From an uncultured Thermoplasmata archaeon (GTDB taxonomy: Archaea; Thermoplasmatota; Thermoplasmata; UBA10834), in the NCBI GenBank assembly GCA_964644565.1, contig CAZXWO010000001.1, positions 57,727 through 121,726 on the forward strand: a stretch of 64,000 nt of DNA. The letters run 5' to 3'. Under the pieces are notes generated by a model that saw only the letters and a program-made list of their open reading frames with translations, was not told where the DNA came from and ran no database searches. Position numbers and translations under genes: made by a program. Shown here in pieces: positions 510 to 56,578 of the stretch. How positions within the stretch are numbered: position 1 is the stretch's first letter; every line of letters begins with the position of its first letter.

Positions 510-536
510 CGCACCACCGCGGCCCCAGGCCCGGGC

Positions 537-1037: not shown

Positions 1038-1066
1038 GACAATCGATGACTACATGTGTACAGTAA

Positions 1067-1091
1067 TACATTAATATTGTCACTTAATGTA
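1067..1091. promoter_or_regulatory. Palindromic candidate operator TACATTAA-N9-TTAATGTA
   Basis: Perfect 8-bp inverted repeat (1067-1074 and 1084-1091) in the AT-rich gap between the regulator and the operon. Confidence 0.5.
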
Positions 1092-1121
1092 CGCCTTCGC
1101 ACTGCCAAAGCGTAGCAAGGG

Positions 1122-1129
1122 ACTTATAC
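1122..1129 (+). promoter_or_regulatory. Archaeal TATA box of the aro operon
   Basis: ACTTATAC preceded by purine-rich CAAGGG (BRE-like), about 60 nt upstream of ATG 1186. Confidence 0.5.
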
Positions 1130-1185
1130 GTCCAGCACCATCGCAAAGGCATTGACACATCGTAGCACGGCAATTCGACGGTGAA

Positions 1186-6627: not shown

Positions 6628-7700
6628 ACGAGTTCGGGACGAGGTACAGGGTAGGCATATTCGGGTCCAGCCACGGCCCCTGCGTCGGGGCCAAGGTGGA
6701 CGGTTGCCCCCCCGGCACGAAGGTCTCCGAGGCGGTCATCCAGGTCGAGCTCGACAGGCGTTCCCCCGGCAAGGGGGTCATCACGTCCCCCAGGGCCGAG
6801 AGGGACAGGCTCGAGGTCATATCCGGCATCGTGGACGGGAAGGCGACCGGCGCGACCATCGTCGGGCTGGTGAGGAACAAGGACTTCGACTCGTCCGCGT
6901 ACGATTCATTCCGCAGGGTCCCCAGGCCGGGGCACGCCGACTACCCGGCCATGGTGAAGTACAAGGGACACCACGACCACCGCGGCGGCGGGCAGTTCTC
7001 CGGCCGGATGACGGCAGGGCTCGTCATCGCCGGGGCGATAGCGAGGCAGGTCCTCGACAAGAGGGACGTGCGCGTCCTGGCCCAGACGGTCCAGATAGGG
7101 TCCGTCCGCATGGAGAAGGAAGTCCCGTTCAGCATCGCCGAGAAGGTGGCGAGGGCGAACGCGGTCGGGTGCGCCGACAGGGACACCGCCGAGCTCATGA
7201 AGGACGAGATCGTCAGGGCCCACGAGGAGAAGGACTCCGTCGGCGGCGTCGTGAGGTGCACGGTCCTCGGCGCCCCCGTGGGCGTGGGCGAGCCGTTCTT
7301 CGGGTCTGTGGAGAGCGCCATCTCCGCGATGATGTTCTCGATACCCGGCGTCAAGGGGGTCGAGTTCGGCTCCGGCTTCCGCGCAGCCTCGATGAGGGGC
7401 AGCGACCACAACGACCCGTACTCGGTCAGGCACGGGAGGATAGTCACCAGGACGAACAACGCCGGCGGCGTCCTGGGAGGACTCTCCACCGGCATGCCGA
7501 TAGACTTCAGGGTCGCCTTCAAACCCACTTCTTCCATAGCGAGGCCGCAGATGAGCGTGGACATCGCGAAGAAGGTGTCCGTGGAGCTCGAGGTCAAGGG
7601 GAGGCACGACCCGTGCATCGTCCCCAGGGCCGTCCCGGTGGTCGAGAACTCGGCCGCCTCCGTGGTGCTGGACCTGATGCTCCAGGGGGGGTTCGCATGA
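6624..7700 (+). CDS. aroC: Chorismate synthase
   Basis: PRPGHAD, GGGQFSGRMT, FKPTSSI, GRHDPCIVPRA. Confidence 0.97.
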   Translation: MNEFGTRYRVGIFGSSHGPCVGAKVDGCPPGTKVSEAVIQVELDRRSPGKGVITSPRAERDRLEVISGIVDGKATGATIVGLVRNKDFDSSAYDSFRRVPRPGHADYPAMVKYKGHHDHRGGGQFSGRMTAGLVIAGAIARQVLDKRDVRVLAQTVQIGSVRMEKEVPFSIAEKVARANAVGCADRDTAELMKDEIVRAHEEKDSVGGVVRCTVLGAPVGVGEPFFGSVESAISAMMFSIPGVKGVEFGSGFRAASMRGSDHNDPYSVRHGRIVTRTNNAGGVLGGLSTGMPIDFRVAFKPTSSIARPQMSVDIAKKVSVELEVKGRHDPCIVPRAVPVVENSAASVVLDLMLQGGFA

Positions 7701-8779
7701 CGAACGAGGAGCTGGACGCCCTCAGGGCGGAGATAGACAGGATCGACCGGGAGCTGGTGAAGCTGATCTCCAGGCGCACCGACGTGGCGAGGGAGATAGG
7801 CCTCACCAAGAGGAAGGACGGGCTGAAGGTCCGGGACGTCCAGAGGGAGAGGAAGGTCGTCGAGAAGATGGCCTCGCTCGCGGGCTCGCTCGGGGCGGAC
7901 AAGAAGCTCGCCAAGGAGGCCGCGAGGCTGCTGATAGCCGACGCGGTCGCGGTCCAGAGGGAGCGGGACGAGCTGCCGCTGGAGGGCGAGAAGGTGCTCG
8001 TCGTCGGCGGCGCCGGGAGAATGGGCGGATGGACATGCAGGTTCATGTCCAACAGGGGCGCCAAGGTCAAGGTCTGGGACCCGAGGGGCAAGCGCAGGGG
8101 CTACCCAAACGCGAAGGCCCTCGGGCCTGCCGTCGCCGAGGCGGACATCATCGTCCTCGCGAGCCCGCTGGGGGCGTGCCCGGAGGAGCTCAGGGCGGTC
8201 ATCGCAGCCCGCCCGAAGGGGCTCGTGATGGACCTGTGCAGCATCAAGTCACACATATCCAGCATCATGAGGATGGCCGCCGCGGACGGCGTGCCGGTTG
8301 CGAGCGTACATCCGATGTTCGGCCCGAGGGCGCCATCGCCCAAGGGCCTGAAAGTCATCATCTGCGACTGCGGCAGCAGGGAGGCGACGGCCCGCGCCAA
8401 GGGGATCTTCGGCGACGCGGGCGCAGAGATCGTCGAGCTGTACCTGGAGGAGCACGACAGGATGATGGCATACATACTGGGCCTGTCGCACCTCACGGCC
8501 CTCATGTTCGGCACGGCCCTCAGGTCCTCCGGGAAGAAGGCCTCCGAGCTGAGGGAGATGCAGGGGACCACCTTCGCGAGGCTGGCCGAGCTGGCCGAGG
8601 AGGTCTCGGGCGAGAGCAGGAGGGTCTACCACGACATACAGGCCCTGAACCCGCACACCAAGGAGATGGCCGAGGCGGCGGAGCAGGCCCTGCGCGAGCT
8701 CAGGGAGGCCTCGTCATCGGCCGACCACCTCATGTTCGCAAACCTGATGGATTCGACCAAGGAACACATGGAGACGTGA
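7697..8779 (+). CDS. tyrA: Chorismate mutase / prephenate dehydrogenase fusion
   Basis: ATG 7697 (ATGA overlap); CM segment LRAEIDRIDRELVKLISRR, then GGAGRMG, DLCSIK, SVHPMFGP, EHDRMMA. Confidence 0.92.
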   Translation: MTNEELDALRAEIDRIDRELVKLISRRTDVAREIGLTKRKDGLKVRDVQRERKVVEKMASLAGSLGADKKLAKEAARLLIADAVAVQRERDELPLEGEKVLVVGGAGRMGGWTCRFMSNRGAKVKVWDPRGKRRGYPNAKALGPAVAEADIIVLASPLGACPEELRAVIAARPKGLVMDLCSIKSHISSIMRMAAADGVPVASVHPMFGPRAPSPKGLKVIICDCGSREATARAKGIFGDAGAEIVELYLEEHDRMMAYILGLSHLTALMFGTALRSSGKKASELREMQGTTFARLAELAEEVSGESRRVYHDIQALNPHTKEMAEAAEQALRELREASSSADHLMFANLMDSTKEHMET

Positions 8780-9852
8780 CCAAGATGACCAAGAAGAGAG
8801 CGGCCATACTCGGCTCGAGCGGCATGATCGGGCAGAGGTTCTCGCACATGCTCGACGGACACCCCTACTTCGACGTGGTGGCCTACTGCGCCTCGGACAG
8901 GTCCGGGGGGAAGAGGCTGTCCGACGTCTGGAAGCTGCCGGACGTGGAGCTCGACCCGAGCCTCGGCTCCAAGGCCATAGTCGGCACCGACGCCAAGGGG
9001 CTCGCCAAGGAGGGCGTGGAGGTCGTGTTCAGCGGCCTACCCTCGGACGTCGCGGGCCCGGTGGAGGACTCGTGCGCCGACGAGGGCATGGCCGTCTACT
9101 CGAACGCGGCATCGCACAGGACGGACCCCGACACGCCCATACTCCTCCCGGAGATCAACCCGGACCACCTCGCGGCCGTGGAGGCGCAGAGGCAGCGGAG
9201 GAGGAAGGGGGGCTACATAGTCACGAACGCGAACTGCTCCGTGACCGGCCTCGCCCTGGGGCTCAAGCCCCTGGTCGACGCGTTCAGGTTCACGGACGTC
9301 TATGTCGCGACCTACCAGGCGCTCTCGGGCGCCGGCCACCCCGGTGTGCCCTCGCTTGACATACTCGGAAACGTCCTCCCGTTCATCAGGGGCGAGGAGG
9401 AGAAGATGACCTCCGAGGGCAGGAAGATCCTCGGGGGCTACAGCAACGGGAGGTTCGTCGACTCCCCCATCCACATAGAGGCGAGCTGCGCCCGGGTCTC
9501 GACCAGGGACGGGCACCTCGAGGCCGTGTTCATCAACCACAAGGACATGCCCGACGCCGACAGGATAACCAAGGTCTTCGCGGACTTCAGGGGGAGGCCG
9601 CAGGAGCTCGGGCTCCCCAGCGCGCCCTTGAGGCCCATAATAGTGAGGAGGGAGCAGGACAGGCCGCAGCCGAGGCTGGACTCGTCCGCAGGGGAGCCGG
9701 CGAGGGCGAAGGGCATGGCCGTGACCGTCGGCCGGGTCCGGACGGGCAGGGACAAGCTGAGGTTCTACCTCCTGGTGCACAACACGATCAGAGGGGGCGC
9801 CGGCGGCTCGGTGCTCAACGCGGAGCTCGCGTACAGGGAGGGACTGATCTGA
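8776..9852 (+). CDS. asd: Aspartate-semialdehyde dehydrogenase (start GTG 8776 or ATG 8785)
   Basis: GSSGMIGQ, catalytic NANCS, YQALSGAG, HNTIRGGAG. Confidence 0.95.
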   Translation: MTKMTKKRAAILGSSGMIGQRFSHMLDGHPYFDVVAYCASDRSGGKRLSDVWKLPDVELDPSLGSKAIVGTDAKGLAKEGVEVVFSGLPSDVAGPVEDSCADEGMAVYSNAASHRTDPDTPILLPEINPDHLAAVEAQRQRRRKGGYIVTNANCSVTGLALGLKPLVDAFRFTDVYVATYQALSGAGHPGVPSLDILGNVLPFIRGEEEKMTSEGRKILGGYSNGRFVDSPIHIEASCARVSTRDGHLEAVFINHKDMPDADRITKVFADFRGRPQELGLPSAPLRPIIVRREQDRPQPRLDSSAGEPARAKGMAVTVGRVRTGRDKLRFYLLVHNTIRGGAGGSVLNAELAYREGLI

Positions 9853-11048
9853 CCTCGAAGCCGAAGAAGCCGCAGGCCAAGGGCAAGAGCTACGAGGACA
9901 TACGCCGCAGGATCGCGAACGGCGACGTCGTGGTCATGACGGCGGACGAGTTCAAGGCGTTCGTGAAGGCCAACGGCGTCAAGAAGGCCGCCCAGGAGGT
10001 CGACGTCGTGACGACCGGCACGTTCGGCGCCATGTGCTCGTCGGGCGCGTACATCAACTTCGGGCACTCGGAACCTCCGATCAAGATGCAGAAGATCTGG
10101 CTCGACGGGATCCCGGCCCAGGCCGGGCTCGCCGCCGTCGACGGCTACATAGGGGCGACGTCGCTCGATGAGACCAACAACATGACCCGCGGCGGCGCCC
10201 ACGTCATAGAGGACCTCGTCCGGGGCAGGGCCGTCAGGCTGAGGGCGACAGGGTACGGCACGGACTGCTACCCGAGGAAGGAGATCGACACCTACGTCAG
10301 CCTCAGGACGGTGAACCAGGCGGTCCTGATGAACGTCAGGAACGCATACCAGAACTACGGGGTGGCGACCAACTCGTCCCCCAAGACGCTGTACACCTAC
10401 ATGGGGAAGCTGCTCCCGGAGTTCGGGAACGCGACCTTCAGCAGCGCCGGCGAGCTGTCGCCGCTCCTGAACGACCCCTACTACAGGACCATCGGCATCG
10501 GCACGCGGATCTTCCTCGGTGGCACGCAGGGGTACGTCATGTGGGAGGGGACCCAGTTCTACCCGGGAGCGCCCAGGACCCCCAACGGCGTCCCCAAGAG
10601 GCCCGCGGGGACCCTCGCGGTCATAGGCGACCTCAAACAGATGAACCCCGAGTTCGTCAAGGGGCTCACCTTCACTAGGTACGGCACCTCGCTCGGCATC
10701 GGCATAGGCGTCCCGATCCCGATCCTCGACGAGGACATGGCCAGGTGCTGCGCGGTCACCAACAGCGACATCCTCGCCACCGTGCTCGACTACGGCCACG
10801 CCACGAGGTCGAGGCCGGTCCTGAGGGAGGTGTCGTACTCCGACCTGAGGTCCGGCGAGATAGAGATAAAGGGCAAGAAGGTGCCGACCTCCTCGCTGTC
10901 GAGCCTGTACAAGGCGCGCAAGGTCTCGGAGGTCCTCAAGAGCTGGATACTCAAGGGGGAGTTCACGTTACAGGAGCCCGTCCAGAACCTCCCGAGGGAC
11001 AGGCAGCTGAAGACTCTCGACGTCAGGACCGAGAAGGAGGCGACCTGA
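9849..11048 (+). CDS. L-aspartate semialdehyde sulfurtransferase / homocysteine biosynthesis protein (DUF39, MA1821/MJ0100 family) without CBS domains; probable CTG start at 9849
   Basis: VDVVTTGTFGAMCSSG with the conserved Cys, GLAAVDGYIG, TYMGKLLP; the homologous N-terminal helix KSYEDIRRRIANG precedes the track start at 9930. Confidence 0.9.
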   Translation: MTSKPKKPQAKGKSYEDIRRRIANGDVVVMTADEFKAFVKANGVKKAAQEVDVVTTGTFGAMCSSGAYINFGHSEPPIKMQKIWLDGIPAQAGLAAVDGYIGATSLDETNNMTRGGAHVIEDLVRGRAVRLRATGYGTDCYPRKEIDTYVSLRTVNQAVLMNVRNAYQNYGVATNSSPKTLYTYMGKLLPEFGNATFSSAGELSPLLNDPYYRTIGIGTRIFLGGTQGYVMWEGTQFYPGAPRTPNGVPKRPAGTLAVIGDLKQMNPEFVKGLTFTRYGTSLGIGIGVPIPILDEDMARCCAVTNSDILATVLDYGHATRSRPVLREVSYSDLRSGEIEIKGKKVPTSSLSSLYKARKVSEVLKSWILKGEFTLQEPVQNLPRDRQLKTLDVRTEKEAT

Positions 11049-16893: not shown

Positions 16894-17424
16894 CTAAGGT
16901 AGGCCGCCGGGCCCGCCTCGGGGGACCCTCTCGCCGATGACCCTGTAGTCCCCCCAGTACAGGAGGGCGTCCGCCTTGTCGTACGACTCCTCCCTGCGCG
17001 CGGCCACGACCTCCCCTATGAACCACACGTGGTCGCCCGTCTCGACCTCGTTGACCTTGACGCACTCGAGGTTCACCGGGCACTCCGCGACGAGGGGCGA
17101 GGATATCCTGCTGGCCTTCTCCCTGGTCAGCCCCGCCGCCTGGAACTTGTCCACGCGCCTGCCGGACTTAGACCCGCAGGCCTCGACCGCCTTGAGCTGC
17201 GCCTTCGTGGGGACGTTGATTGCGAAGTCCTTGCCCTTCTGGAGCAGGCCGTAGCTGAACCTCTTCGGCGCCACGCCGATGCCCACGAGCGGCGGCTTGA
17301 ACGAGAACACGTGGCACAGCGCGAGGGTTATGATGTTGTCCTTCTCCCCGCCGACGCTGCATAGGACGACCGGGAAGCCCGAGAACGCGTCTGTGCCGTC
17401 TTCGGCGGAGATGTCCTTCTTCAC
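16894..17424 (-). CDS. Flavin reductase-like FMN-binding protein
   Basis: KDFAINVP, CGSKSGRRVDKF, ECPVNLEC, GDHVWFIGEV. Confidence 0.9.
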   Translation of the reverse strand: MKKDISAEDGTDAFSGFPVVLCSVGGEKDNIITLALCHVFSFKPPLVGIGVAPKRFSYGLLQKGKDFAINVPTKAQLKAVEACGSKSGRRVDKFQAAGLTREKASRISSPLVAECPVNLECVKVNEVETGDHVWFIGEVVAARREESYDKADALLYWGDYRVIGERVPRGGPGGLP

Positions 17425-17466
17425 GGAGTGTCACCCCTGCGGAGGCCGCCCAGGCGGGCTCCGGCC

Positions 17467-17850
17467 TCATTCGCCCAGGAGCTTCTTGTAGTCCTCGGCC
17501 GACATGAGCTCCGACAGGTCGTCGGGGTTGCTCATCTCGACCGCGGCGATCCAGCCCTGGCCGTACGGATCCTTGTTCAGGAGCTCCGGGGAGTCGACCA
17601 GCTTGTCGTTCTTCTCCTTGACGGCCCCGCTCACGGGCGAGAACACCTCGGAGACCGTCTTGACGGACTCCACGTTGCCGAGGACGGTGGCCTTGGCCAC
17701 TTCCTTCCCGACGCTCGGCAGTTCAACGAACACTATCTCGGTCAGTTCGGCCTGAGCGTGGTCGGTGATGCCCACGCGTGCGAGGTTACCCTCGACCTTC
17801 ACCCACTCATGGTCCTTCGTGTACTTGAGGTCCGGCAAGACGACAGACAT
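17467..17850 (-). CDS. gcvH: Glycine cleavage system H protein (lipoyl carrier)
   Basis: KYTKDHEW, GITDHAQ, lipoyl-Lys ESVKTVSEV, NKDPYGQGW; start ATG 17850. Confidence 0.95.
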   Translation of the reverse strand: MSVVLPDLKYTKDHEWVKVEGNLARVGITDHAQAELTEIVFVELPSVGKEVAKATVLGNVESVKTVSEVFSPVSGAVKEKNDKLVDSPELLNKDPYGQGWIAAVEMSNPDDLSELMSAEDYKKLLGE

Positions 17851-17993
17851 GACTGGCCTCCTGTTACTCTCCGCTCTGATTAGCATATCGCGATTTATAA
17901 CTTCGCCATTGACCCGCCGCCGCGTCCGGCCAGGCATGTTATCGGAAGGGTTATCTACGCTAAGTCCGTTGATGCGCCAGGGAGAGGTTTCTC

Positions 17994-19112
17994 ATGAGGA
18001 CGGAATCGGTCAAGTTCTTGGAAGAGCTCACGAACTGCTTCGGCCCATCTGGGTTCGAGAAGGTCCCTGCGAGGATCGTGAAGGAGTACGTGTCGAGGTA
18101 CAGCGACTCGACGAGCACCGACAAGCTCGGCTCGTTCCTGTTCACCAAGAGGGGCAGCGCGGACAAGCCCGTGATACTCATGCCCGGGCACATCGACGAG
18201 GTCGGGTTCATCGTGTCGTCGGTGAACAAGAACGGCTTCCTGACGTTCCACCCGCTGGGCGGGTGGTTCGACCAGGTGCTGCTGGGGCAGAGGGTCAAGG
18301 TCAGGACCGTGAAGGGGATAGTGCCAGGCATAATCGCGGCCAAACCCCCGCACCTGCTCCCCCCTGAGGAGCGGACCAAGGTCGTCACCAAGGACAAGAT
18401 GTTCATCGACATAGGCGCCTCCAACGAGGACGAGGCCAAGGAGATGGGCGTCAGGATAGGCAACCCGATCATCCCCGACTCGTGCTTCTCGACGATGCAG
18501 AAGAGGGTCTTCAAGGATGGCAAGAGGAAGGGCACGGACACGATCGCCGTCGGGAAGGCCTTCGACGACAGGATCGGGACGTTCATCGCCGCCGAGGTCG
18601 TGAGGATACTGAAGGAGGAGAAGATCAAGCACCCGAACACGGTCGTAGGCGCGGCGACGACACAGGAGGAGGTGGGACTGAGGGGCGCGAGGACCACGGC
18701 CCACGTCGTCAACCCGGACGTCTGCCTCACGCTCGAGGTCGACATCGCGGGGGACGTGCCCGGCATCGAGGCCAGCGAGGCGCCGACGAAGATGGGGTAC
18801 GGCCCGTCCATCACCACCTACGACTCGTCGATGATACCCAACCAGGAGCTGCTCGAGTTCGTCCTAGACGTGGCGAAGAAGTCGAAGATACCCTACCAGC
18901 TCTCGCAGATCGCCAGGGGCGGGACGGACGCGGGCATCATACACATCTCCAACGCAGGGTGCCCGAGCCTGGTGGTCGGGATACCCACGAGGCACATACA
19001 CGCCCACGCGGGCCTGCTCAGCATGACCGACACAGAGAACGCGATCAAGCTCCTGGTCGAGGTCGTCAAGAGGCTCGACAAGAAGACCGCGGACAGCTTC
19101 ACGGCCATCTGA
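17994..19112 (+). CDS. M42 family metallo-aminopeptidase (TET-like)
   Basis: GHIDEVG, KAFDDRIG, TQEEVGLRGA, GGTDAG, PTRHIH. Confidence 0.93.
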   Translation: MRTESVKFLEELTNCFGPSGFEKVPARIVKEYVSRYSDSTSTDKLGSFLFTKRGSADKPVILMPGHIDEVGFIVSSVNKNGFLTFHPLGGWFDQVLLGQRVKVRTVKGIVPGIIAAKPPHLLPPEERTKVVTKDKMFIDIGASNEDEAKEMGVRIGNPIIPDSCFSTMQKRVFKDGKRKGTDTIAVGKAFDDRIGTFIAAEVVRILKEEKIKHPNTVVGAATTQEEVGLRGARTTAHVVNPDVCLTLEVDIAGDVPGIEASEAPTKMGYGPSITTYDSSMIPNQELLEFVLDVAKKSKIPYQLSQIARGGTDAGIIHISNAGCPSLVVGIPTRHIHAHAGLLSMTDTENAIKLLVEVVKRLDKKTADSFTAI

Positions 19113-48045: not shown

Positions 48046-48122
48046 GCGGCCGTAGTGTAGACTGGTTATCACTTTAGCTTGCCAAGCTAAAAACTCGGGT
48101 TCAAATCCCGACGGCCGCACCA
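48046..48122 (+). tRNA. tRNA-Gly (GCC), encoded CCA, no intron
   Basis: Acceptor GCGGCCG/CGGCCGC, anticodon arm TTAGC-TTGCCAA-GCTAA, T arm TCGGG-TTCAAAT-CCCGA, 3' ACCA. Confidence 0.98.
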
Positions 48123-48154
48123 CGGTTCTCTTGAGGAACGGCCATAGGGGCGGT

Positions 48155-48694
48155 ATGCCGCAGGAAGACCGAAATATGGAAGACACCCCTTCGACAACCG
48201 CCATGAAGGAGGAACTCGAATGCCCCAGATGCAGGGCTAGAAATGAGGCATCTGCACGTTTCTGTAGTCAGTGCGGACTAGTCTACATGCACTGTCCGAA
48301 GTGCGACACTCTGAATCCCGAGGCAGTTGAGTTCTGCATAGAATGTGGCGAGAGGATACAGTCTAGCAAGACTTCTGCCAAATATGGAGATAACGTCGAC
48401 AAGGAACCATACGTCATCTGGGAAGGGTTTCCATTTGCCTGGCTTGAGAGAAGGATGCAGACAAAGAGGCAGTTCTTCTTGTCTCTTGGGATCTACATCT
48501 TTTGTGTCTTCACGATGGTTACGGTATTCATGATCGACGTCGTGCCCGCCGCCCTGCAGGGAGATCCAGGGGCTGGTGCTGCCATATGTTGCTTGAGCTC
48601 CGCTTTTGTCGTGATTGGCTGGCTCTTCTCTATGTATTGGTGGGTCGGTAGACGGGAAGCAGAAGAGGAGCAGAAGAACAGATGGCAAGACTGA
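48155..48694 (+). CDS. Double zinc-ribbon membrane protein (cassette 1 gene)
   Basis: CPRC, CSQC, CPKC and CIEC plus two TM helices; many A/T-ending codons unlike the host; start uncertain (48131, 48155 or 48176). Confidence 0.75.
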   Translation: MPQEDRNMEDTPSTTAMKEELECPRCRARNEASARFCSQCGLVYMHCPKCDTLNPEAVEFCIECGERIQSSKTSAKYGDNVDKEPYVIWEGFPFAWLERRMQTKRQFFLSLGIYIFCVFTMVTVFMIDVVPAALQGDPGAGAAICCLSSAFVVIGWLFSMYWWVGRREAEEEQKNRWQD

Positions 48695-48775
48695 AATGAG
48701 TTCTCAGAAGGCCACAGGAGAAGAAGATGAGAAAGGGGTTTAGGTCCAGTCGATTCCCCGTCTTGATTGAAACCA

Positions 48776-48846
48776 GAAAAAGGGAGACTGGCTCGCCTTG
48801 GGTGTGAGGCCCGACGGCCGCACGTCCATTCCTCTTTGGAGAAGGC
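48776..48846 (+). repeat. att-like element A carrying a 14-bp copy of the tRNA-Gly 3' end (48810-48823)
   Basis: CCCGACGGCCGCAC is identical to 48107-48120; flanks are homologous to element B. Confidence 0.85.
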
Positions 48847-48934
48847 CGCAGGGGCATAGGACCAAGAGGGAGCCCTTTGTTGTTAGAGAAGAAGAGGCAG
48901 ATTAGCATTTAAGACCATCAAGTCGATTCAGGAA

Positions 48935-49519
48935 GTGGCACCGATGCGCAGCAAACAGGTCTTCTTGGTTGCAGGAGTTGCACTTGCCGTCGCAGGATTC
49001 ATTGTGATGGACTACTCCCATGTTCCTCTGGAACGAACAGAAACGCGCACTTTGTCATCTACGCCAGACGTCATAGACTCCACGGCAACAACGCCAGTTG
49101 GATTCTGGGTTGTGTCGAAGTTCTCCTTGTGGATTGAAGGACAGCTCTGGGGCAGTTGGAGTGCGGATATCCCTGCGGGCATAGACGAGTTTGACATCCT
49201 TTGGCTCATCATCGATCAGTCGACATACGACAACTACTGGCTGCCTGGATACTCTGAGGGTGTTCTTATGATTCACCATGGCTTCAACGATTCTGTCTCG
49301 GAGATCGGTTCTGTTCATCTCCCCACCTCAGGCAACTACTACCTCATCATTGAGAGCTTGGTCCCGATCCCTGAGCAGTTCGACGTCACAATTGACTGCG
49401 GAGTCGATGGGTTGAATCTCAGATTACTCTTACCGGGAGTCATAACCATCCTGGTGGCCGCTGCGTTGTTTATGACGGGCAGCGTCACGTCCGGAAGTCT
49501 GCCTCGGAAGAAACCATAG
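48935..49519 (+). CDS. Hypothetical membrane-anchored protein (cassette 2 gene)
   Basis: N- and C-terminal hydrophobic helices around a beta-rich domain; atypical A/T-rich codons. Confidence 0.75.
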   Translation: MAPMRSKQVFLVAGVALAVAGFIVMDYSHVPLERTETRTLSSTPDVIDSTATTPVGFWVVSKFSLWIEGQLWGSWSADIPAGIDEFDILWLIIDQSTYDNYWLPGYSEGVLMIHHGFNDSVSEIGSVHLPTSGNYYLIIESLVPIPEQFDVTIDCGVDGLNLRLLLPGVITILVAAALFMTGSVTSGSLPRKKP

Positions 49520-49601
49520 AACTGAAGAGAAGAACAAAGAGGTTGATTCCGGCGGAAGCCCCGAGTTGGCCTCAAGGACCTGACAAACTAGCTCCCCAGT
49601 A

Positions 49602-49623
49602 GTTCAAATCCCCTTCGGTCCAC
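49602..49623 (+). repeat. tRNA 3'-end-like remnant (T-loop plus acceptor strand) of a different tRNA
   Basis: GTTCAAATCCCCTTCGGTCCAC, inside the 8-bp inverted repeat CAAAGAGG (49535-42) / CCTCTTTG (49628-35). Confidence 0.5.
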
Positions 49624-49645
49624 ACTTCCTCTTTGACCGAAATCC

Positions 49646-49716
49646 GAAAGAAGGAGGCTGGCTCACGGAGGATTCTTGGCCCGACGGCCGCACGGTCTCC
49701 TCTTCTGGGAAAGGCA
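49646..49716 (+). repeat. att-like element B carrying a 14-bp copy of the tRNA-Gly 3' end (49680-49693)
   Basis: 17-bp identity with element A (GGCCCGACGGCCGCACG) plus a 16/19 match upstream at the same 870-bp offset. Confidence 0.85.
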
Positions 49717-49746
49717 GATAGGGAGAGTATGTGATACAGAGACACG

Positions 49747-50775
49747 GTGGGTGGTCTCATCAGGCCTGCAATCTCTGGATACGCAGCCATGGAAGTGGGA
49801 CAGAAGCTCGTGCAATTCAGTTATGAGCCTCCGGAATTGAAGGATCGAGAGATTCGAGTCTCCGTCACCCACTGTGGTCTCTGCTACAGTGACATCTTCG
49901 CGGTCGACGATCAATACGGCATCACCGTCTTCCCGTTCGTGCCCGGTCACGAGATTGTCGGCCACGTGTCCGAAATCGGCCCCTCGGCATCCGGACTCAA
50001 GGAAGGGGACCGGGTCGGCATTGGCTGGCAGGGCCGTTCTTGCATGAAGTGCGAATGGTGCCTCCGGGGAGACGAACACCTCTGCGAGGACGTCAAGAAG
50101 AACGGAGTCTGGATGCCCTACGGTGGCTTCTCGTCCTCGGTCACGGCAGACAGCCGCTTCGCCTACGTCCTACCCCCCTCCATGCCCTCCGAGTTCGCTG
50201 CGGTGCTCCTATGCGCAGGGATTGCCGTCTACGCCCCACTCCAATCCTGCGCGACCGGACATGGGCAGAAGGTCGGCGTCGTTGGCGTGGGCGGCCTCGG
50301 CCATCTTGCCATCCAATTCGCGCATGCGCTCGGTTTCGATGTCACCGCCATCTCGTCGTCGCCAGACAAGGAGGAACAGGCGTCCGCCTTCGGCGCGGAC
50401 CACTTCCTGCACGTACGAGACAAGAGCAGCTACAGTAAAGTGGCGTCCAGCTTCGACATGCTCCTCTTCACCGGCCACACCAGTCTCGACTGGGTTCCGC
50501 TGCAGCGCACTCTAAGGAACAACGGTAGGTTGGTCATGGTTGGCTTCTCTCCGACCCTCGTGGCGTTCGAGTCCGTGGACCTCGTGGTACACCAGCAGTC
50601 GGTGACAGGCTCCTTCATCGGCAGCCCGAAGTTGATGAAGGAGATGCTCAGATTCGCGCAGGAGCATGGCATCAAACCACAGGTCGAGCTCATGCCGATG
50701 TCGCGAGTGAACGAGGCGATCCGCAGGATCAAGGAGGGCAAGGCCCGCTACCGGATAGTGCTCGTCAACGAGTGA
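49747..50775 (+). CDS. Zinc-dependent NAD(P)H alcohol dehydrogenase / aldehyde reductase (Ahr/AdhP-like, CAD family)
   Basis: CGLCYSD, PGHEIVG, structural-Zn CMKCEWC...C, GVGGLGHLAIQFA, KARYRIVL. Confidence 0.93.
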   Translation: MGGLIRPAISGYAAMEVGQKLVQFSYEPPELKDREIRVSVTHCGLCYSDIFAVDDQYGITVFPFVPGHEIVGHVSEIGPSASGLKEGDRVGIGWQGRSCMKCEWCLRGDEHLCEDVKKNGVWMPYGGFSSSVTADSRFAYVLPPSMPSEFAAVLLCAGIAVYAPLQSCATGHGQKVGVVGVGGLGHLAIQFAHALGFDVTAISSSPDKEEQASAFGADHFLHVRDKSSYSKVASSFDMLLFTGHTSLDWVPLQRTLRNNGRLVMVGFSPTLVAFESVDLVVHQQSVTGSFIGSPKLMKEMLRFAQEHGIKPQVELMPMSRVNEAIRRIKEGKARYRIVLVNE

Positions 50776-50885
50776 GAACCCCGGACATCAGCCGTGCACA
50801 CGGACGACCCCGTCATGGTCGGAACCGACCCGACGGAACCCGCGGCGAGCGAAAAGAGATATGCAGGGAGGCCGATGACCGGCAG

Positions 50886-51152
50886 ATGCGGTCCGGCAAG
50901 CCCTGGCTCCCCAAGAAGTGGCACAAGGGGGATCTGTACGCCCTGGCGTTCCTGCTGCTCGGCCTCGTGATGGTGCTCTCAGTGGCGGCCACCGGGCTGA
51001 GGTATGCCACTTGGACGCTGTGGATCGCCGTGCCCATGATCATGTTCAGCCTTGCATACATATTCCTGGTCAGCGCGCTACCCATCTTCCTGGGCCCGAG
51101 GTCCGGCGGCGAACCTGGAGAAGGGGAGACCACGGAGGAGGGCCGCGAATGA
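50886..51152 (+). CDS. Small two-TM membrane protein
   Basis: Two hydrophobic helices and an acidic tail; ATGA-coupled to the next ORF; start uncertain. Confidence 0.6.
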   Translation: MRSGKPWLPKKWHKGDLYALAFLLLGLVMVLSVAATGLRYATWTLWIAVPMIMFSLAYIFLVSALPIFLGPRSGGEPGEGETTEEGRE

Positions 51153-51346
51153 AGCGGGGTTGGCTCGGCCTGACATTCCCTTTCGCGCTGGTGATTGTCC
51201 TTGGCCTGATCTGCCTCCTGCTCGCCTTCATCGTATGGTCACCAGAGGGTTGGATGACCATGCAGAGCAACCTGGTGGCGCTCGGGGTGGTGCTGATCCT
51301 GTTCGGGTCGGTTGCCATCGCCTTCCTGAGGCTCAGGGCATCGTGA
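51149..51346 (+). CDS. Small two-TM membrane protein (65 aa)
   Basis: GGAGG upstream; ATG 51149 overlaps the previous stop; MKRGWLGLTFPFALVIVLG...LFGSVAIAFLRLRAS. Confidence 0.6.
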   Translation: MKRGWLGLTFPFALVIVLGLICLLLAFIVWSPEGWMTMQSNLVALGVVLILFGSVAIAFLRLRAS

Positions 51347-51417
51347 CTGCCATCCCCCTCCCCGACGTGCCAAACATTTAACCCGAACACGCACATGCCG
51401 GCGCCGGGGTAGACAGG

Positions 51418-52548
51418 ATGAAGGTCGAGCTTTTCGAAATGGAACGGATGCAGTCGATGTACGAGCGGGTCGTTGACTACGAGCTCTCGGAGAGCGGCGT
51501 GCACGCGCTGAGGATCAGTGAGCTGCTTGGCGGAGGCGGAGCGCCGAAGGAGTTCCTGGAGCTCCCGCTTGGCTACCCACACGCCGACGGGACCCCGGGG
51601 CTGAGGGCCGCGGTCGCCGCCACGTACGATGGGGCTGCCACGGAGAACGTCTTCGTCACGAACGGCTCCTCCGAGGCCAACTTCATCGCCGCATGGCACC
51701 TGTTCGAGAAGGGGGACGAGATCGCCCTCATGACGCCCAACTACGCCCAGATGTGGGGGCTCGCGAAGACCTGGGGGGTGAAGATCAAGCCGCTCTGGCT
51801 CAGGGAGGAACTGGGCTGGCAGTTCGACCCTGAGGACCTCAAGAAGGTCGTCACTAAGAAGACGAAGGTCATCCAGGTCTGCAACCCGAACAACCCCACT
51901 GGGGCCATCATGGGGAGCAAGCAGCGCAAGGCGCTCATGGACGCGGCCAGGGACTCAGGCGCGTGGCTCCTCTCCGATGAGGTCTACCTCGGCGCGGAGA
52001 GGGAGGCGCCGCTGACGGAGTCGCTCTGGAGCGACTACGAGAGGACGCTCATCACCAACGGCCTGAGCAAGGCGTACGGCCTGCCCGGGCTCCGCATCGG
52101 ATGGCTCGTGGGACAGCCCGAGGTGCTGGCGCGCGTGAAGCACCACCATGACTACCTCACCCTCACGCCCGCGGCGCCGTCGGACCGGCTGGCCACGTTG
52201 GCCCTCGAGCCGAAGAAGAGGAAGTGGATCTTCGACAGGACCAGGTCGATACTGCGGAAGAACTACCCGGTCCTGAAGGAGTGGATGGACGCGCACGGGG
52301 AGCTGTTCTCCCACGTGCCGCCCGCTGCAGGGGCCATATGCTACGTCAGGTACAACATGAAGATCAATTCGACCTTGCTCGCGGAGCGCCTCAGGAAGGA
52401 GAAGTCCGTCCTGATGGTCCCCGGGGATCACTTCGGCATGGACGGCTACATGAGGATAGGCACGGGCCCGCCGAAGGAGTACCTGCACGCGGGCCTGGAC
52501 AGGGTGGACGAGCTGCTGAGGGAGCTCCGGACAGGCAAGAAGAGCTGA
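51418..52548 (+). CDS. PLP-dependent aminotransferase class I/II
   Basis: CNPNNPTG, LSDEVY, NGLSKAYGLPGLRIGW. Confidence 0.93.
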   Translation: MKVELFEMERMQSMYERVVDYELSESGVHALRISELLGGGGAPKEFLELPLGYPHADGTPGLRAAVAATYDGAATENVFVTNGSSEANFIAAWHLFEKGDEIALMTPNYAQMWGLAKTWGVKIKPLWLREELGWQFDPEDLKKVVTKKTKVIQVCNPNNPTGAIMGSKQRKALMDAARDSGAWLLSDEVYLGAEREAPLTESLWSDYERTLITNGLSKAYGLPGLRIGWLVGQPEVLARVKHHHDYLTLTPAAPSDRLATLALEPKKRKWIFDRTRSILRKNYPVLKEWMDAHGELFSHVPPAAGAICYVRYNMKINSTLLAERLRKEKSVLMVPGDHFGMDGYMRIGTGPPKEYLHAGLDRVDELLRELRTGKKS

Positions 52549-54700: not shown

Positions 54701-54982
54701 TCACTTCTGGTCTATGATCTGGATGATGTGCCAGCCGAACTGGGTCTTCACGGGCCCGACGACGTCGCCCTTCTTTCCGTTGAAGGCCGCGGTCTCGAAC
54801 TCCTTGACCATCATGTTCCTTCCGAACCAGCCGAGGTCGCCGCCCTGCTTGCCGGACGGGCACTCCGAGTGCTTCTTCGCGAGGTCACCGAAGGAATCCC
54901 CGCCCCTCACCTTGATGAGGAGGTCCTTCGCGAGGTTCTCTGACTTGACCAGTATGTGCGCCGCGTGTATCTTGTTCGCCAT
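54701..54982 (-). CDS. ppiC: Parvulin-type peptidyl-prolyl isomerase (single domain, Par10-like)
   Basis: AAHILVK, FGDLAKKHSECPS, GGDLGWF, MVKEFE, VKTQFGWHII. Confidence 0.93.
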   Translation of the reverse strand: MANKIHAAHILVKSENLAKDLLIKVRGGDSFGDLAKKHSECPSGKQGGDLGWFGRNMMVKEFETAAFNGKKGDVVGPVKTQFGWHIIQIIDQK

Positions 54983-55027
54983 GGCGGTCAATCGGGAGGC
55001 ACCCATATCAATGTTTTCAACTCGAAC

Positions 55028-56458
55028 CTAGCCGGCAGAGCGCTCGAACTGGGCTATGATGGCGTCCCCCTTCGAGACCACATCTCTGTCGATTGCGGGC
55101 ACCCTGTGCTCGGCCAGCAGCCTGCGTGCGATCTCCTTGGCCTCGGGCACCATCGCCCTCGACATCGTGGCCTCCCACTTGGCGAAGGTGGTGTCCTTGA
55201 ATATCAGCTCGGACTTGAAGTTCCTCGCCGTGTGCGGGTTCGTTATGAAGGTGTTCCCGTGGCCGACCTTCCTCACCACGTCCAGCGCGATGGTCTCCTT
55301 GCTCACGGTGTACCTCTTCATGAAGTGCCTCACGCTCTCCCACAGCGTCGACTCAATGACGGCCTGGTCGAAGGAGGCGCCCTTCACGGCGTCCAGCCCC
55401 CCGATCCCCGACACGAGGTCGGAGTTGCCCATGGTGCTGAGACAGAGGCCCATCGTCTCGGTGAAGGTGTGGGGCACGCCCGGGTCGGCGGTGTCGTTGA
55501 CGCCCCAGTCGCCGACCATTGAAGGCAGCGAGTACCTCCTAGACATCTGCCCCAGCGACGCGGCGATGAGGCACTGCTCGACGGTCATGTAGTTAATCGA
55601 ACCGGTCCTCATGTTTATGGGCGCGGACGAGGAACAGTAGACGTGCGGCGCGCCCGGAGCCGATGTCTGGGTTATGACGAGGCTGGCCAGGTTCTCCGTG
55701 TTGGCGTTGCATATCGTCCCTGCCATGGTTATCGGCGCGGAGCCGCCCGACAGGGACATCGACATGGACATCACGGGGATGCCGGCCTTGGACAGCTCGA
55801 CCATCCCCTCGACGATCCCGGTCTCGTACGCCAGCGGGGCTATCGAGCAGCAGATGACCGAGAACAGGGGGCGCTTCCTGAGCTCCTCCTTCCCGCCCGC
55901 GACCAGCGATGCCAGCTCGACCTGCGCCCTCGCGTCCTCGGCGCTCAGGATCGAGACGCCGTTCACGTGCTTCGTCGTGTTCTGCATCGCGGTCCAGAGC
56001 TCGTGGAGGCTGTGGGACGCCTGGTTGACCTCGGTCGCGGTGAGGGTGGTCCATACGAAGTCCACGCCCTTCAGCGCGTCGGCGAGCCTGATGAAGTCGG
56101 CGATGTCCTTCCTGGTGGACGGCCTCTTCTCGCCCGTGTCCATGTCCCGTATGTAGACGCCCAGACCGGTGGTCGCGGCGTACGGGGGGCCGTCGACTGG
56201 CACCGTCAGGTCGTTCCTAGGGTCGCGTGCGCACATCTTGAACGACCTTGGTGCTTTCTTCAGCGCCTCGTCGACCAGGTCCTCCGGTATCCTGGCGACC
56301 ATCTTCGTCTCGTCGACCGCCGCTCCGGCGCCCTCGAGTGTCTTGAGTATCGGACGGCTGGGTATGTGCACGCCGATCTCACGGAGGCACTCGAGGCTCT
56401 GGGAGTGCACTAGGTCCATCTCATCCCTGCTCAGGAACACGAATCTTCCGACTGCCAT
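55028..56458 (-). CDS. mttB: Trimethylamine methyltransferase (MttB) superfamily protein, pyrrolysine-free
   Basis: LREIGV, EALKKAP, GGSAPITMAG, NTENLASLV, PGAPHVY; no in-frame TAG; ATG 56458 after GGAGGGA. Confidence 0.88.
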   Translation of the reverse strand: MAVGRFVFLSRDEMDLVHSQSLECLREIGVHIPSRPILKTLEGAGAAVDETKMVARIPEDLVDEALKKAPRSFKMCARDPRNDLTVPVDGPPYAATTGLGVYIRDMDTGEKRPSTRKDIADFIRLADALKGVDFVWTTLTATEVNQASHSLHELWTAMQNTTKHVNGVSILSAEDARAQVELASLVAGGKEELRKRPLFSVICCSIAPLAYETGIVEGMVELSKAGIPVMSMSMSLSGGSAPITMAGTICNANTENLASLVITQTSAPGAPHVYCSSSAPINMRTGSINYMTVEQCLIAASLGQMSRRYSLPSMVGDWGVNDTADPGVPHTFTETMGLCLSTMGNSDLVSGIGGLDAVKGASFDQAVIESTLWESVRHFMKRYTVSKETIALDVVRKVGHGNTFITNPHTARNFKSELIFKDTTFAKWEATMSRAMVPEAKEIARRLLAEHRVPAIDRDVVSKGDAIIAQFERSAG

Positions 56459-56578
56459 GCTGCTCTTCCCTCCTGGACGGGTTCCCCACCGAAGGTCCCG
56501 ATGTCCTGAGGGGGCATGACGCAGGACGGATATCAACCTCTTTCCCGAAGGCTTAAGGAAGTTCCGGTCGGCGCGGGC

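What the first reader, a model, noticed from the sequence alone, without database searches (positions are those of the whole stretch)
48046..50836. Integrase-less, tRNA-Gly-anchored array of single-gene cassettes (integron-like mini-elements)
Seen: the last 14 nt of the tRNA gene (CCCGACGGCCGCAC, 48107-20) recur exactly at 48810-23 and 49680-93, giving units of 703 and 870 bp that each hold one gene in the tRNA orientation with visibly non-host, A/T-rich codons. The two copies share much more than the tRNA sequence: GAAA(A/G)A(G/A)GGAG(A/G)CTGGCTC (16/19), a variable N13, GGCCCGACGGCCGCACG, then a TCCTCTT-containing tract that is imperfectly complementary to the left purine tract. A similar TTCTCTT follows the tRNA itself. 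Identity starts right after the T-loop, which is replaced by unrelated sequence in the copies. A third unit (ADH) may end at a partial CCCGACGG (50829-36). No integrase is in the window. Established: tyrosine integrases target tRNA 3' ends and leave such duplications, but those elements are normally many kb and carry the integrase. Inference: a family of sub-kb gene cassettes with conserved ends, stacked at a tRNA by a recombinase acting in trans, possibly through hairpin attC-like sites.
Basis: partly seen in the sequence, partly recalled or inferred. Interest (0 to 1): 0.8.

Follow-up and report, generated by a model that had tools for sequence, protein, structure and literature searches.

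The report
Integrase-less gene cassettes stacked at tRNA-Gly
Behind a tRNA-Gly gene of an uncultured Thermoplasmata archaeon sit two (probably three) tiny one-gene mobile cassettes that carry no recombination enzyme; they belong to a family-wide set of such cassettes that pile up at tRNA genes and share one end-piece with integrase-carrying elements of the same genomes.

Summary
The last 14 nt of tRNA-Gly(GCC) recur exactly at 48810 and 49680, inside roughly 110-nt repeats (nhmmer E 1e-24 to 1e-28). They bound two low-GC single-gene units of 703 and 870 bp.

These are real insertion junctions. Congener G001 has the site empty, while its close relative G002 holds three different cassettes between exact copies of the same 14-mer.

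Each junction is modular:
- a conserved left arm, IR-L (TTGATTGAAAT-N12-GTCTGGCT);
- a core that copies a tRNA 3' end;
- a promoter-like right module, R2.

The family occurs in 39 of 46 genomes of one Thermoplasmata family and in 59 metagenome contigs. Units are 0.4-6.7 kb (median 1.1 kb), and IR-L is joined to cores of at least five tRNA species. Cargo is diverse, and the tRNA-Gly(GCC) arrays contain no integrase.

IR-L, with a mirror copy (IR-R), flanks the att core of elements that carry a roughly 400-aa tyrosine integrase. One such integrase lies on contig C61 of this genome.

My best reading is non-autonomous, CIME-like cassettes mobilised in trans. The attC-like hairpin idea and the proposed end of the third unit are not supported. 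This is not an integron.

The parts
48046..48122 (+). tRNA-Gly(GCC) gene with encoded CCA. It is the attachment target; its promoter-like TATAAAT lies about 30 nt upstream.
   Evidence: ARAGORN; Rfam tRNA 67 bits
48107..48120 (+). Core copy 0: T-stem 3' strand, acceptor 3' strand, discriminator and first C (CCCGACGGCCGCAC).
48121..48160 (+). R2 module of cassette 1 (..GGTTCTCTTGAGGAACGGCCATAGGGGCGG..), immediately after the tRNA.
   Evidence: nhmmer hit 48095-48160, model positions 44-109; alignment A2
48203..48694 (+). Cassette 1 gene: 163-aa protein with a double zinc ribbon and hydrophobic C-terminal segments (read by eye). The start could also be ATG 48176.
   Evidence: ORF; Pfam Zn_Ribbon_1 8e-11 and DZR 1e-9; full-length relatives at only 34% identity in 2 of 46 genomes
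48763..48793 (+). IR-L arm of cassette 1 (TTGATTGAAACCAG-AAAAAGG-GAGACTGGCT).
48810..48823 (+). Core copy 1, exact 14/14. With the preceding GTGAGGCC it forms the imperfect palindrome GTGAGGCC-CGAC-GGCCGCAC.
48824..48866 (+). R2 module of cassette 2 (GTCCATTCCTCTTTGGAGAAGGCCGCAGGGGCATAGG).
   Evidence: hit 48756-48866, E 5e-28
48944..49519 (+). Cassette 2 gene: protein of about 191 aa with hydrophobic segments near both ends (read by eye) and no Pfam, PADLOC or PHROG family. GTG 48935 is an alternative start.
   Evidence: relatives at about 30% identity in 4 of 46 genomes, two of them beside other tRNA genes
49602..49623 (+). 22-nt exact copy of the 3' end of this genome's own tRNA-Ala(TGC) (GTTCAAATCCCCTTCGGTCCAC). 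It is a second att core carried inside cassette 2.
   Evidence: tRNA-Ala on contig C53:338-410
49633..49663 (+). IR-L arm of cassette 2, diverged (TTGACCGAAATCCG-AAAGAAG-GAGGCTGGCT).
49680..49693 (+). Core copy 2, exact 14/14.
49694..49733 (+). R2 module in front of the ADH gene (GTCTCCTCTTCTGGGAAAGGCAGATAGGGAGAG).
   Evidence: hit 49626-49733, E 1e-24
49789..50775 (+). Zinc-dependent alcohol dehydrogenase with host-like GC. Probably an older third unit, shared with G011, where it also follows a repeat.
   Evidence: Pfam ADH_N and ADH_zinc_N; blastn 78% to L016 4006-3006, and repeat at L016 4151-4048
50886..51346 (+). Two small overlapping ORFs (88 and 65 aa; 50886-51152 and 51149-51346), hydrophobic by eye. 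They belong to the DNA that is extra relative to G003. The first is shared with G011.
51376..51420 (+). Synteny with relatives resumes here (aminotransferase gene starts at 51418). The original distal junction and IR-R relic are missing in this genome.
   Evidence: G003 flank

Best explanation
The locus is a tandem array of small non-autonomous integrative cassettes. They were inserted one after another by site-specific recombination into the 3' end of tRNA-Gly(GCC).

Anatomy of one unit:
- R2, a roughly 40-nt promoter-proximal module that abuts the core.
- One gene (sometimes a few).
- IR-L, a 31-nt arm: TTGATTGAAAT-N12-GTCTGGCT.
- A core that copies the tRNA from the T-stem 3' strand to the discriminator. 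In the consensus, the sequence upstream of it completes a palindrome, GYGCGGCC-CGRC-GGCCGCAC.

Because the cassette brings its own copy of the last 14 nt, the tRNA stays intact after insertion.

IR-L is one of the two inverted arms (IR-L and IR-R) that flank the att core of elements in the same archaeal family. Those elements encode a roughly 400-aa tyrosine integrase that stays intact on integration (pNOB8-like layout). The cassettes keep only IR-L plus the core. They are therefore most likely mobilised in trans by such an integrase, as CIMEs are in bacteria. One integrase of the family is on contig C61 of this genome. An IR-R relic sits right behind tRNA-Gly(GCC) in congeners.

Shown: insertion junctions, the modular ends, family-wide spread, variable content, absence of an integrase in the arrays, and the shared arm.

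Inferred: excision as circles, present-day activity, and which integrase does the work.
For: 1. Real insertion. G001 (empty site) equals the tRNA side of G002 plus the distal side of G002, joined exactly at CCCGACGGCCGCAC. Flanks are 100% and about 93% identical. G002 has 2.07 kb with 3 cassettes between them.

2. Variable content at the same tRNA within one genus: window 2(+1) units, G002 3 units, G011 at least 5, G005 and G006 several, G003, G001 and G008 none.

3. Conserved ends on unrelated cargo. Mean pairwise identity is IR-L 0.80, core 0.87, R2 0.63, flanks 0.29-0.37. The core-R2 junction is precise in dozens of units.

4. Spread. The repeat is in 39 of 46 genomes and all 4 genera of the family, in 26 GTDB-genome stretches, nearly all Thermoplasmata MAGs, and in 59 JGI contigs. 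Forty non-redundant units measure 402-6657 bp, and 19 are under 1 kb.

5. IR-L is joined to cores of Gly(GCC), Gly(CCC), Leu, Ala(TGC) and Arg(CCT) type. Cassette 2 in the window carries an exact 22-nt tRNA-Ala(TGC) end of its own host.

6. Link to integrases.
- The reverse complement of the flank behind tRNA-Gly in G003 and G006 aligns with IR-L.
- L158 reads tRNA-Leu, IR-R, integrase remnant, then IR-L and Leu core. L155 has the same layout with a Gly(CCC)-type core.
- G006 has a 15.2-kb element with a full integrase and exact 22-nt att repeats at tRNA-Leu.
- C53 reads tRNA-Ala, cassette, core, mirrored arm, integrase remnant.
- C61 has a 408-aa integrase next to a tRNA-Leu.
- The integrase family is in 32 of 46 genomes.

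7. Recent reshuffling. A 3.3-kb segment that is 99.85% identical follows a Gly-type junction in L187, but follows a Zn-ribbon cassette with an Arg-type core in L162.

8. Cargo is accessory and diverse (Zn-ribbon membrane proteins, ADH, GNAT, peptidase C11, NosD/PKD, HTH). It includes no integrase or replication genes.
Against:
- No integrase-bearing element was found sitting at tRNA-Gly(GCC) itself. Only the IR-R relic was found.
- Presence of the integrase family does not track presence of repeats. It is present in 28 of 39 repeat-bearing genomes and 4 of 7 repeat-free genomes. G011, G002, G005 and G069 have arrays but no detectable member, although these MAGs are only 60-84% complete.
- The C61 integrase targets tRNA-Leu, and its own arms are a compressed variant of IR-L/IR-R.
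- R2 is not IR-R. A cassette circle would therefore offer only one canonical arm.
- R2-only and IR-L-only copies occur next to genes without cores. The L162/L187 breakpoint lies in R2. Part of the shuffling could therefore be homologous recombination between modules.
Confidence: 0.6

Rival explanations
1. Inert scars. Each unit is what is left after a full-size integrase-bearing element integrated at the tRNA and then lost everything except its last cargo gene and its attR end. The array is a fossil record of ordinary tandem integrations, and the units never move on their own.
For: - Integrase remnants next to IR-R occur at other tRNAs: C53, L158 and L155, and L129 and L177.
- An IR-R relic lies behind tRNA-Gly in G003 and G006.
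- Some cores are decayed in G011.
- The ADH unit has host-like GC and no recognisable distal end.
Against: - Random deletions would not repeatedly place R2 directly against the core (0-1 nt) in dozens of units with unrelated genes across four genera.
- No integrase fragment is found in any tRNA-Gly(GCC) array examined.
- Both window cores are exact 14/14.
- IR-L and the core are conserved at 0.80-0.87 identity, while the cassette bodies share no DNA similarity.
- The close pair G001 and G002 differ by three units with clean junctions.
Confidence: 0.2
2. A host-run capture platform that works like an integron without being one. A chromosomal recombinase present in every genome, XerA or an unrecognised enzyme, inserts and excises the cassettes. 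The tRNA 3' end acts as the fixed site, as attI does in an integron.
For: - Arrays occur in MAGs where the only full-length tyrosine recombinase detected is the conserved Xer-like gene: G011, G026 and G036.
- The attP-like core is a short palindrome, as Xer and other simple tyrosine-recombinase sites are.
- One conserved arm is combined with many different cores.
Against: - Those MAGs are 65-86% complete, and mobile elements are often lost in binning.
- IR-L is demonstrably the arm of integrase-bearing mobile elements.
- No IntI-type integrase is present: TIGR02249 best score is 50 bits against a 265-bit cut-off.
- The dif site of these genomes was not identified, so similarity to dif is untested.
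Confidence: 0.12
3. Module shuffling without a dedicated recombinase. R2 (a promoter/5' module) and IR-L (a 3' module) are shared regulatory blocks of a fast-evolving accessory gene pool. Units are duplicated, swapped and lost by homologous recombination between these roughly 30-40-nt blocks. The tRNA-derived core is only a passenger from one ancient integration.
For: - R2-only copies precede genes inside larger units and on contig C29.
- IR-L-only copies follow genes inside a 15-kb element.
- The L162/L187 breakpoint falls inside R2.
- A core-like hairpin followed by a T tract ends an ordinary host gene on C9.
Against: - This does not explain why the same arm is joined to the 3' ends of at least five different tRNAs, each matching the resident tRNA.
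- It does not explain arrays starting exactly at the tRNA end, with the tRNA restored.
- It does not explain the A/G variant in the core following the host's own tRNA-Gly: CCCGAC in G000, G002 and G011, and CCCGGC in G005, G006, G024 and G069.
Confidence: 0.08

Closest known systems
CIMEs (cis-mobilizable elements) and tandem accretion at att sites of ICEs/IMEs in Firmicutes (Pavlovic 2004 and Bellanger 2011, as reviewed in PMC5704250)
   Same: The units lack integration genes but keep att sites. They sit in tandem at the 3' end of a target gene next to, or in place of, integrase-bearing relatives. The presumed mobilisation is by a related element's integrase.
   Different: Here the units form a coherent family of mostly single-gene units (median 1.1 kb). 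They have a fixed modular design (R2-gene-IR-L-core), keep only one of the two integrase-element arms, are stacked up to five or more deep, and are spread over several tRNA species. The hosts are archaea. No mobilisation has been demonstrated.
Integrons (IntI, attI, attC cassettes), including those reported in Archaea (PMC9668308)
   Same: Arrays of mostly one-gene cassettes with variable, largely unknown cargo at a fixed chromosomal site. The recombination enzyme is not inside the cassettes.
   Different: There is no IntI and no attC signature or hairpin. The fixed site is a tRNA 3' end. The cassettes seem to bring their own promoters. The conserved arm comes from ordinary integrative elements.
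Archaeal tRNA-targeting integrative elements with a tyrosine integrase that stays intact on integration (pNOB8-type / type II; reviews PMC8371274 and PMC6563490, which also note arrays formed by re-use of one att site)
   Same: The target is the 3' part of a tRNA gene, bounded by direct repeats of the tRNA end. The candidate helper integrases (C61, the G006 tRNA-Leu element) lie intact next to attL, with the att core outside the gene.
   Different: The units in the window have no integrase and are 10-50 times smaller than typical elements.
Tycheposon-shaped genomic islands of Prochlorococcus (bioRxiv 10.1101/2020.12.28.424599)
   Same: tRNA-anchored islands built by repeated integration, with partial tRNA copies and degraded integrases scattered inside. 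Cargo behaves as plug-in modules.
   Different: Tycheposons carry their own recombinase and often replication genes. A defined class of recombinase-less one-gene units with conserved ends is not part of that description.
IMEX arrays at dif (elements exploiting host Xer recombinases)
   Same: Integrase-less elements stacked at one site by a recombinase encoded elsewhere.
   Different: The target here is a tRNA end, not dif. A Xer role is untested.

Membership tests
Integron | Integron integrase (IntI) gene beside the array | tested here: not met
   TIGR02249 gives a best score of 50 bits against a 265-bit cut-off in the whole assembly, and nothing on the window contig. PF00589 hits lie only on C76, C52 and C61. 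The assembly is 81% complete.
Integron | attC sites: imperfect palindromes that fold as single-strand hairpins, with the R'/R'' GTTRRRY signature | tested here: not met
   Whole units fold no better than shuffles on either strand (z -0.5 to +1.0). Only two short local palindromes are present, with weak covariation. By eye, the aligned repeats hold no conserved GTTRRRY.
Integron | Tandem, mostly single-ORF cassettes whose content varies between relatives | tested here: met
Integron | Promoter-less cassettes expressed from a platform promoter (Pc) | not testable with these tools
   By eye, TATA-like boxes lie about 25-35 nt before the starts: GAAATATGG before 48203, GCATTTAAGACC before 48944, and AAGCCCTTAAGCC in other units.
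CIME / tandem accretion | Unit bounded by att sites created by site-specific integration into the 3' end of a gene | tested here: met
   Exact 14-nt repeats. Empty and filled alleles share exact junctions.
CIME / tandem accretion | No integrase, excision or transfer genes inside the unit | tested here: met
   Pfam, PHROG and PADLOC searches of cassette proteins. tblastn with the integrase against six arrays finds nothing.
CIME / tandem accretion | A related autonomous element with an integrase that uses the same att site | tested here: inconclusive
   The same IR-L/IR-R arms flank integrase-bearing or integrase-remnant elements at tRNA-Leu, Gly(CCC), Arg, Val and Ala. An IR-R relic lies at tRNA-Gly(GCC). 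No intact integrase element was found at tRNA-Gly(GCC) itself.
CIME / tandem accretion | Excision or transfer driven by the helper's integrase | not testable with these tools
pNOB8-type (type II) archaeal integrative element | Element-encoded tyrosine integrase that remains intact after integration | tested here: not met
   Not met for the window units, which have no integrase. It is met for the candidate helpers: the G006 tRNA-Leu element has a full ORF 70 nt from attL with the core outside the ORF.
MITE / transposon | Terminal inverted repeats at the two ends of the unit, and a short target-site duplication at varied sites | tested here: not met
   The unit ends (R2 and IR-L) share only a roughly 12-nt imperfect complement. 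Insertion is at specific tRNA ends, and the 'duplication' is the tRNA 3' end itself.
IMEX (Xer-exploiting element) | dif-like site recombined by the host Xer | not tested
   The dif site of these genomes was not identified. A conserved XerA-like gene is present: C76, NF040815-like.

The most novel reading that the evidence does not exclude
One family of Thermoplasmata runs a cassette-exchange system that is unrelated to integrons but works like one. In this reading, promoter-bearing single-gene cassettes carry a half att site made of a constant 31-nt arm and an exchangeable palindromic core that copies a tRNA end. A tyrosine integrase encoded elsewhere inserts, excises and re-targets them among at least five tRNA genes. 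It would do so by an attL x attR-type reaction with the IR-R relic that sits behind the tRNA. tRNA genes would then serve as open, expandable gene-capture platforms. Analogous arrays are noted elsewhere in this scan for DPANN and other Thermoplasmatota, so this could be a general archaeal route of gene acquisition.
Probability: 0.3. Interest if true: 0.85.

Novelty: new variant of a known kind. Interest (0 to 1): 0.62.

Why it matters
Archaeal flexible genomes are full of small orphan genes whose route of entry is unknown. This locus shows a concrete, sequence-defined vehicle: a one-gene unit with a promoter-like head, a conserved 31-nt recombination arm and a tRNA-end core. The unit is found throughout a Thermoplasmata family and stacked at several tRNAs. 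If the units are mobilised in trans, they are the smallest integrative elements described for archaea and a functional counterpart of integron cassettes that arose independently. The system is directly testable, because the arm, core, target and candidate integrases are all defined. The repeats also explain why short-read assemblies of these genomes break at such loci.

Tried and rejected
- Split-tRNA or tRNA-like minihelix reading of the repeat. The constant CTGGCT does not co-vary with the different acceptor strands. Rfam sees only the true tRNA.
- attC-like or long-hairpin site. This is rejected by folding and by pair counts: 80.7% of cells are paired against 79.8% in shuffles, with only 6 double changes.
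- Integron. No IntI is present.
- Viral origin. The IR-L 20-mer has 0 hits in IMG/VR. Cassette proteins have no meaningful PHROG match.
- Defence cargo in the window. There are no PADLOC hits.
- Population polymorphism.
- Circular short contigs. Twelve short metagenome contigs carrying repeats showed no terminal overlap.
- Phyletic correlation between integrases and repeats. No association was found.
- The 50829-36 'partial core'. It has no repeat context.


Full report
**The observation**

The window lies on contig C1 of a 1.78-Mb, 94-contig assembly with 64.4% GC. Related contigs are labelled uncultured Thermoplasmata MAGs from sediments and muds.

- ARAGORN and Rfam place one tRNA-Gly(GCC) at 48046-48122.
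- Its last 14 nt, CCCGACGGCCGCAC, recur exactly at 48810 and 49680 on the same strand. They occur nowhere else in the assembly.
- The copies sit inside roughly 110-nt repeats. A profile of the repeat matches them at E 5e-28 and 1e-24.
- The two intervals of 703 and 870 bp have 51-55% GC. Each holds one co-oriented ORF.
- The first ORF is a double zinc-ribbon protein with hydrophobic C-terminal segments. The second has no known domain.

**These are insertion junctions**

- In congener G001, tRNA-Gly is followed directly by CAC|ACCCATGCGCAGACG.
- In its close relative G002, the tRNA is followed by 2.07 kb that contains three different one-gene units. The last repeat is followed by the same ACCCATGCGCAGACG flank.
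- The two genomes are 100% identical upstream and about 93% identical downstream across the aligned flanks.
- G003 and G008 are also empty. G011 has at least five units. G005 and G006 have several.
- In G003 the tRNA lies about 180 bp from the aminotransferase gene that starts at 51418 in the window. Everything from 48123 to about 51375 is therefore extra DNA here.
- The ADH gene and the first small membrane ORF are shared with G011, where ADH also follows a repeat (L016 4151-4048).
- ADH is thus probably an older third unit. Its end is not at 50829-36 as proposed, and no distal repeat survives.

**Anatomy of the repeat**

An alignment of 27 repeats from four genera shows four parts.

1. IR-L: (C/T)TGATTGAAATCAG-AAAAAGG-nnGTCTGGCT.
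2. A short variable stretch in the place of the T-loop.
3. The core.
4. R2: GTCCATTCTTCTGAGAAAAGGCCATAGGGGCGGA, often followed by a TATA-like box and the start codon.

Mean pairwise identity is 0.80 for IR-L, 0.87 for the core and 0.63 for R2. The flanks just outside score 0.29-0.37. The cassette bodies share no detectable DNA similarity.

In the consensus, the bases that replace the T-loop complete a palindrome with the acceptor strand, GYGCGGCC-CGRC-GGCCGCAC. This is the usual look of a tyrosine-recombinase core site; that reading is an inference.

The A/G at the fifth core position follows the resident tRNA. It is CCCGAC in G000, G002 and G011, and CCCGGC in G005, G006, G024 and G069.

Single-strand folding of whole units is no better than shuffled sequence (z -0.5 to +1.0). 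Pair counts on the two local palindromes show little covariation. The attC-like hairpin idea therefore has no support.

**Spread and content**

- A sequence model of the repeat finds it in 39 of 46 genomes of the taxonomic family, in all four genera, with up to 11 copies per genome.
- The IR-L 20-mer is in 26 GTDB-genome stretches. Nearly all are Thermoplasmata. Three bacterial hits are near the number expected by chance.
- The 20-mer is in 59 JGI metagenome contigs and in no IMG/VR contig.
- Forty non-redundant units bounded by two core-bearing repeats measure 402-6657 bp, with a median near 1.1 kb. Nineteen are under 1 kb.
- Cargo elsewhere includes GNAT acetyltransferases, a clostripain-like peptidase, NosD/PKD surface proteins, HTH regulators and many zinc-ribbon membrane proteins.
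- No integrase or integrase fragment lies in any tRNA-Gly(GCC) array examined.
- The window's two cassette proteins are near-orphans. Relatives share 30-34% identity and occur in a handful of genomes. Two relatives of the cassette 2 protein lie beside other tRNA genes.

**One arm, many tRNAs**

Of 157 IR-L copies, 92 are joined to the Gly(GCC) core. The rest are joined to cores that copy the 3' ends of other tRNAs: Leu-type, Gly(CCC)-type, Ala(TGC)-type, Arg(CCT)-type and others.

Cassette 2 in the window carries a second core at 49602-49623, just before its IR-L. This 22-nt stretch is identical to the 3' end of this genome's own tRNA-Ala(TGC) on contig C53. Such a core would be expected if the unit, or part of it, once sat at that tRNA.

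C53 itself shows tRNA-Ala, then a 750-bp integrase-less unit, then a repeat of the tRNA end, then a mirrored arm, and finally the last 39 codons of an integrase.

**Link to integrases**

The reverse complement of the resident flank behind tRNA-Gly in G003, and behind the last repeat in G006, aligns with IR-L as TTGATTGAAA..GAAAAA..GTCTGGCT.CGCA. The full site is therefore IR-L, core, then an inverted copy, IR-R.

The same layout bounds elements that carry a roughly 400-aa tyrosine recombinase. This enzyme is distantly Xer-like: its best PDB hit is P. abyssi XerA 4A8E, and it matches PHROG 1 integrase. The cases are:

- L158: tRNA-Leu, IR-R, truncated integrase, then IR-L and a Leu core.
- L155: the same layout with a Gly(CCC)-type core.
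- L129: tRNA-Arg, IR-R, integrase pseudogene.
- L067: tRNA-Val, an IR-R-like arm, full-length integrase.
- G006: a 15.2-kb element at tRNA-Leu(CAG) with exact 22-nt att repeats, a full integrase 70 nt from attL, and a compressed variant of the arms.

This genome has one full member of the family. It lies on contig C61, which begins inside a tRNA-Leu. The integrase family is in 32 of 46 genomes, including all 12 high-quality ones.

**What this means**

The cassettes keep one arm (IR-L) and the core of an ordinary integrative-element att site. They replace the other arm with a gene-proximal module, R2. The most economical mechanism is non-autonomous units inserted, and perhaps excised, by an integrase of this family supplied in trans. 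This matches CIMEs and tandem accretion in bacteria (PMC5704250). It also fits the known tendency of tyrosine-recombinase elements to re-use one site (PMC6563490).

Two observations argue against simple erosion of large elements. R2 abuts the core precisely and recurrently in dozens of unrelated units. The tRNA-Gly arrays contain no integrase debris.

There is also evidence of recent change. A 3.3-kb segment that is 99.85% identical follows a Gly-type junction in one metagenome contig. In another contig it follows a zinc-ribbon cassette with an Arg-type core.

**Caveats**

- That breakpoint lies in R2. R2-only and IR-L-only copies exist next to genes without cores. Homologous exchange between modules may therefore contribute.
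- Integrase presence does not correlate with repeat presence across these incomplete MAGs.
- No intact integrase element was seen at tRNA-Gly(GCC).
Excision, circles and present activity are untested.
- A host-encoded recombinase such as XerA is not excluded.

**Comparison with known systems and novelty**

This is not an integron. It has no IntI and no attC features, and the cassettes probably have their own promoters. It resembles an integron only in outcome.

It fits the CIME/tandem-accretion concept and the tRNA-island picture of tycheposons (10.1101/2020.12.28.424599). It differs in being a coherent, family-wide class of mostly one-gene units with a fixed modular design, a single retained arm and exchangeable tRNA cores, in archaea.

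Four literature searches found no description of such a class. Earlier notes of this scan list similar integrase-less tRNA arrays in DPANN and other Thermoplasmatota. Those notes are unverified leads and not support.

I rate the finding a new variant of a known kind, with moderate to high interest.

Noticed in passing
window 49602-49623: A 22-nt exact copy of the 3' end of this genome's own tRNA-Ala(TGC) lies inside cassette 2, directly before its IR-L arm. A metagenome cassette (L188, 660-700) has the same layout with another tRNA-like end.
   Followed up: yes
own genome contig C53:338-1361 (outside the window): The order here is tRNA-Ala(TGC), a roughly 750-bp integrase-less unit with a reverse-strand gene, a repeat of the tRNA end (1164-1186), a mirrored arm and a 39-codon integrase C-terminal remnant (1361-1245).
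   Followed up: partly
own genome contig C61:1-5673 (outside the window): The contig starts inside a tRNA-Leu(CAG)-like gene. It then carries a 408-aa tyrosine integrase (101-1327, minus strand) and a long ORF (3752-5674) that by eye looks like a C5 DNA methyltransferase (not searched). This looks like an integrated element whose contig broke at the tRNA.
   Followed up: partly
own genome contig C29, about 16960-18490 (outside the window): Three R2-only modules (nhmmer 18488-18455, 17935-17894 and 17002-16965, minus strand) are spaced about 0.55 and 0.9 kb apart along a run of short ORFs, with no IR-L or core between them. This is a cassette-like array without att cores at a contig end.
   Followed up: no
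own genome contig C9:15831-15880 (outside the window): A perfect hairpin, GTGCGGCC-CTGC-GGCCGCAC, followed by a T-rich tract lies right after the stop codon of an ordinary host gene. It is the same palindrome as the cassette core and looks like a terminator.
   Followed up: no
G006 contigs C9, C1, C7 (ends) and C4 (start); loci L051, L052, L054, L057: Four contigs of one MAG end or begin inside repeats, and two different left contexts lead into the same right-hand cassette. Either the arrays break short-read assemblies or the population is polymorphic in cassette order.
   Followed up: no
L089 and L094 (JAEOUG01, labelled Candidatus Thorarchaeota MAG): Two short contigs of an Asgard-labelled MAG carry one and three full repeats of this Thermoplasmata family. 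This is either misbinning or cross-phylum transfer.
   Followed up: no
L056 (G006:C5:162000-178000), 4100-10200: A low-GC island beside the prolyl-tRNA synthetase gene holds four zinc-ribbon membrane genes, one full Gly-type repeat (8143-8043, minus strand) and a 312-aa integrase (8663-9601). No tRNA gene is detectable nearby, so this is a possible secondary-site insertion.
   Followed up: partly
window 54701-56536, minus strand: By eye, a 502-aa ORF (55028-56536) resembles a trimethylamine methyltransferase (MttB) without an in-frame amber codon, and a small ORF (54701-55006) resembles a parvulin-type PPIase. Neither was searched, and neither is related to the finding.
   Followed up: no
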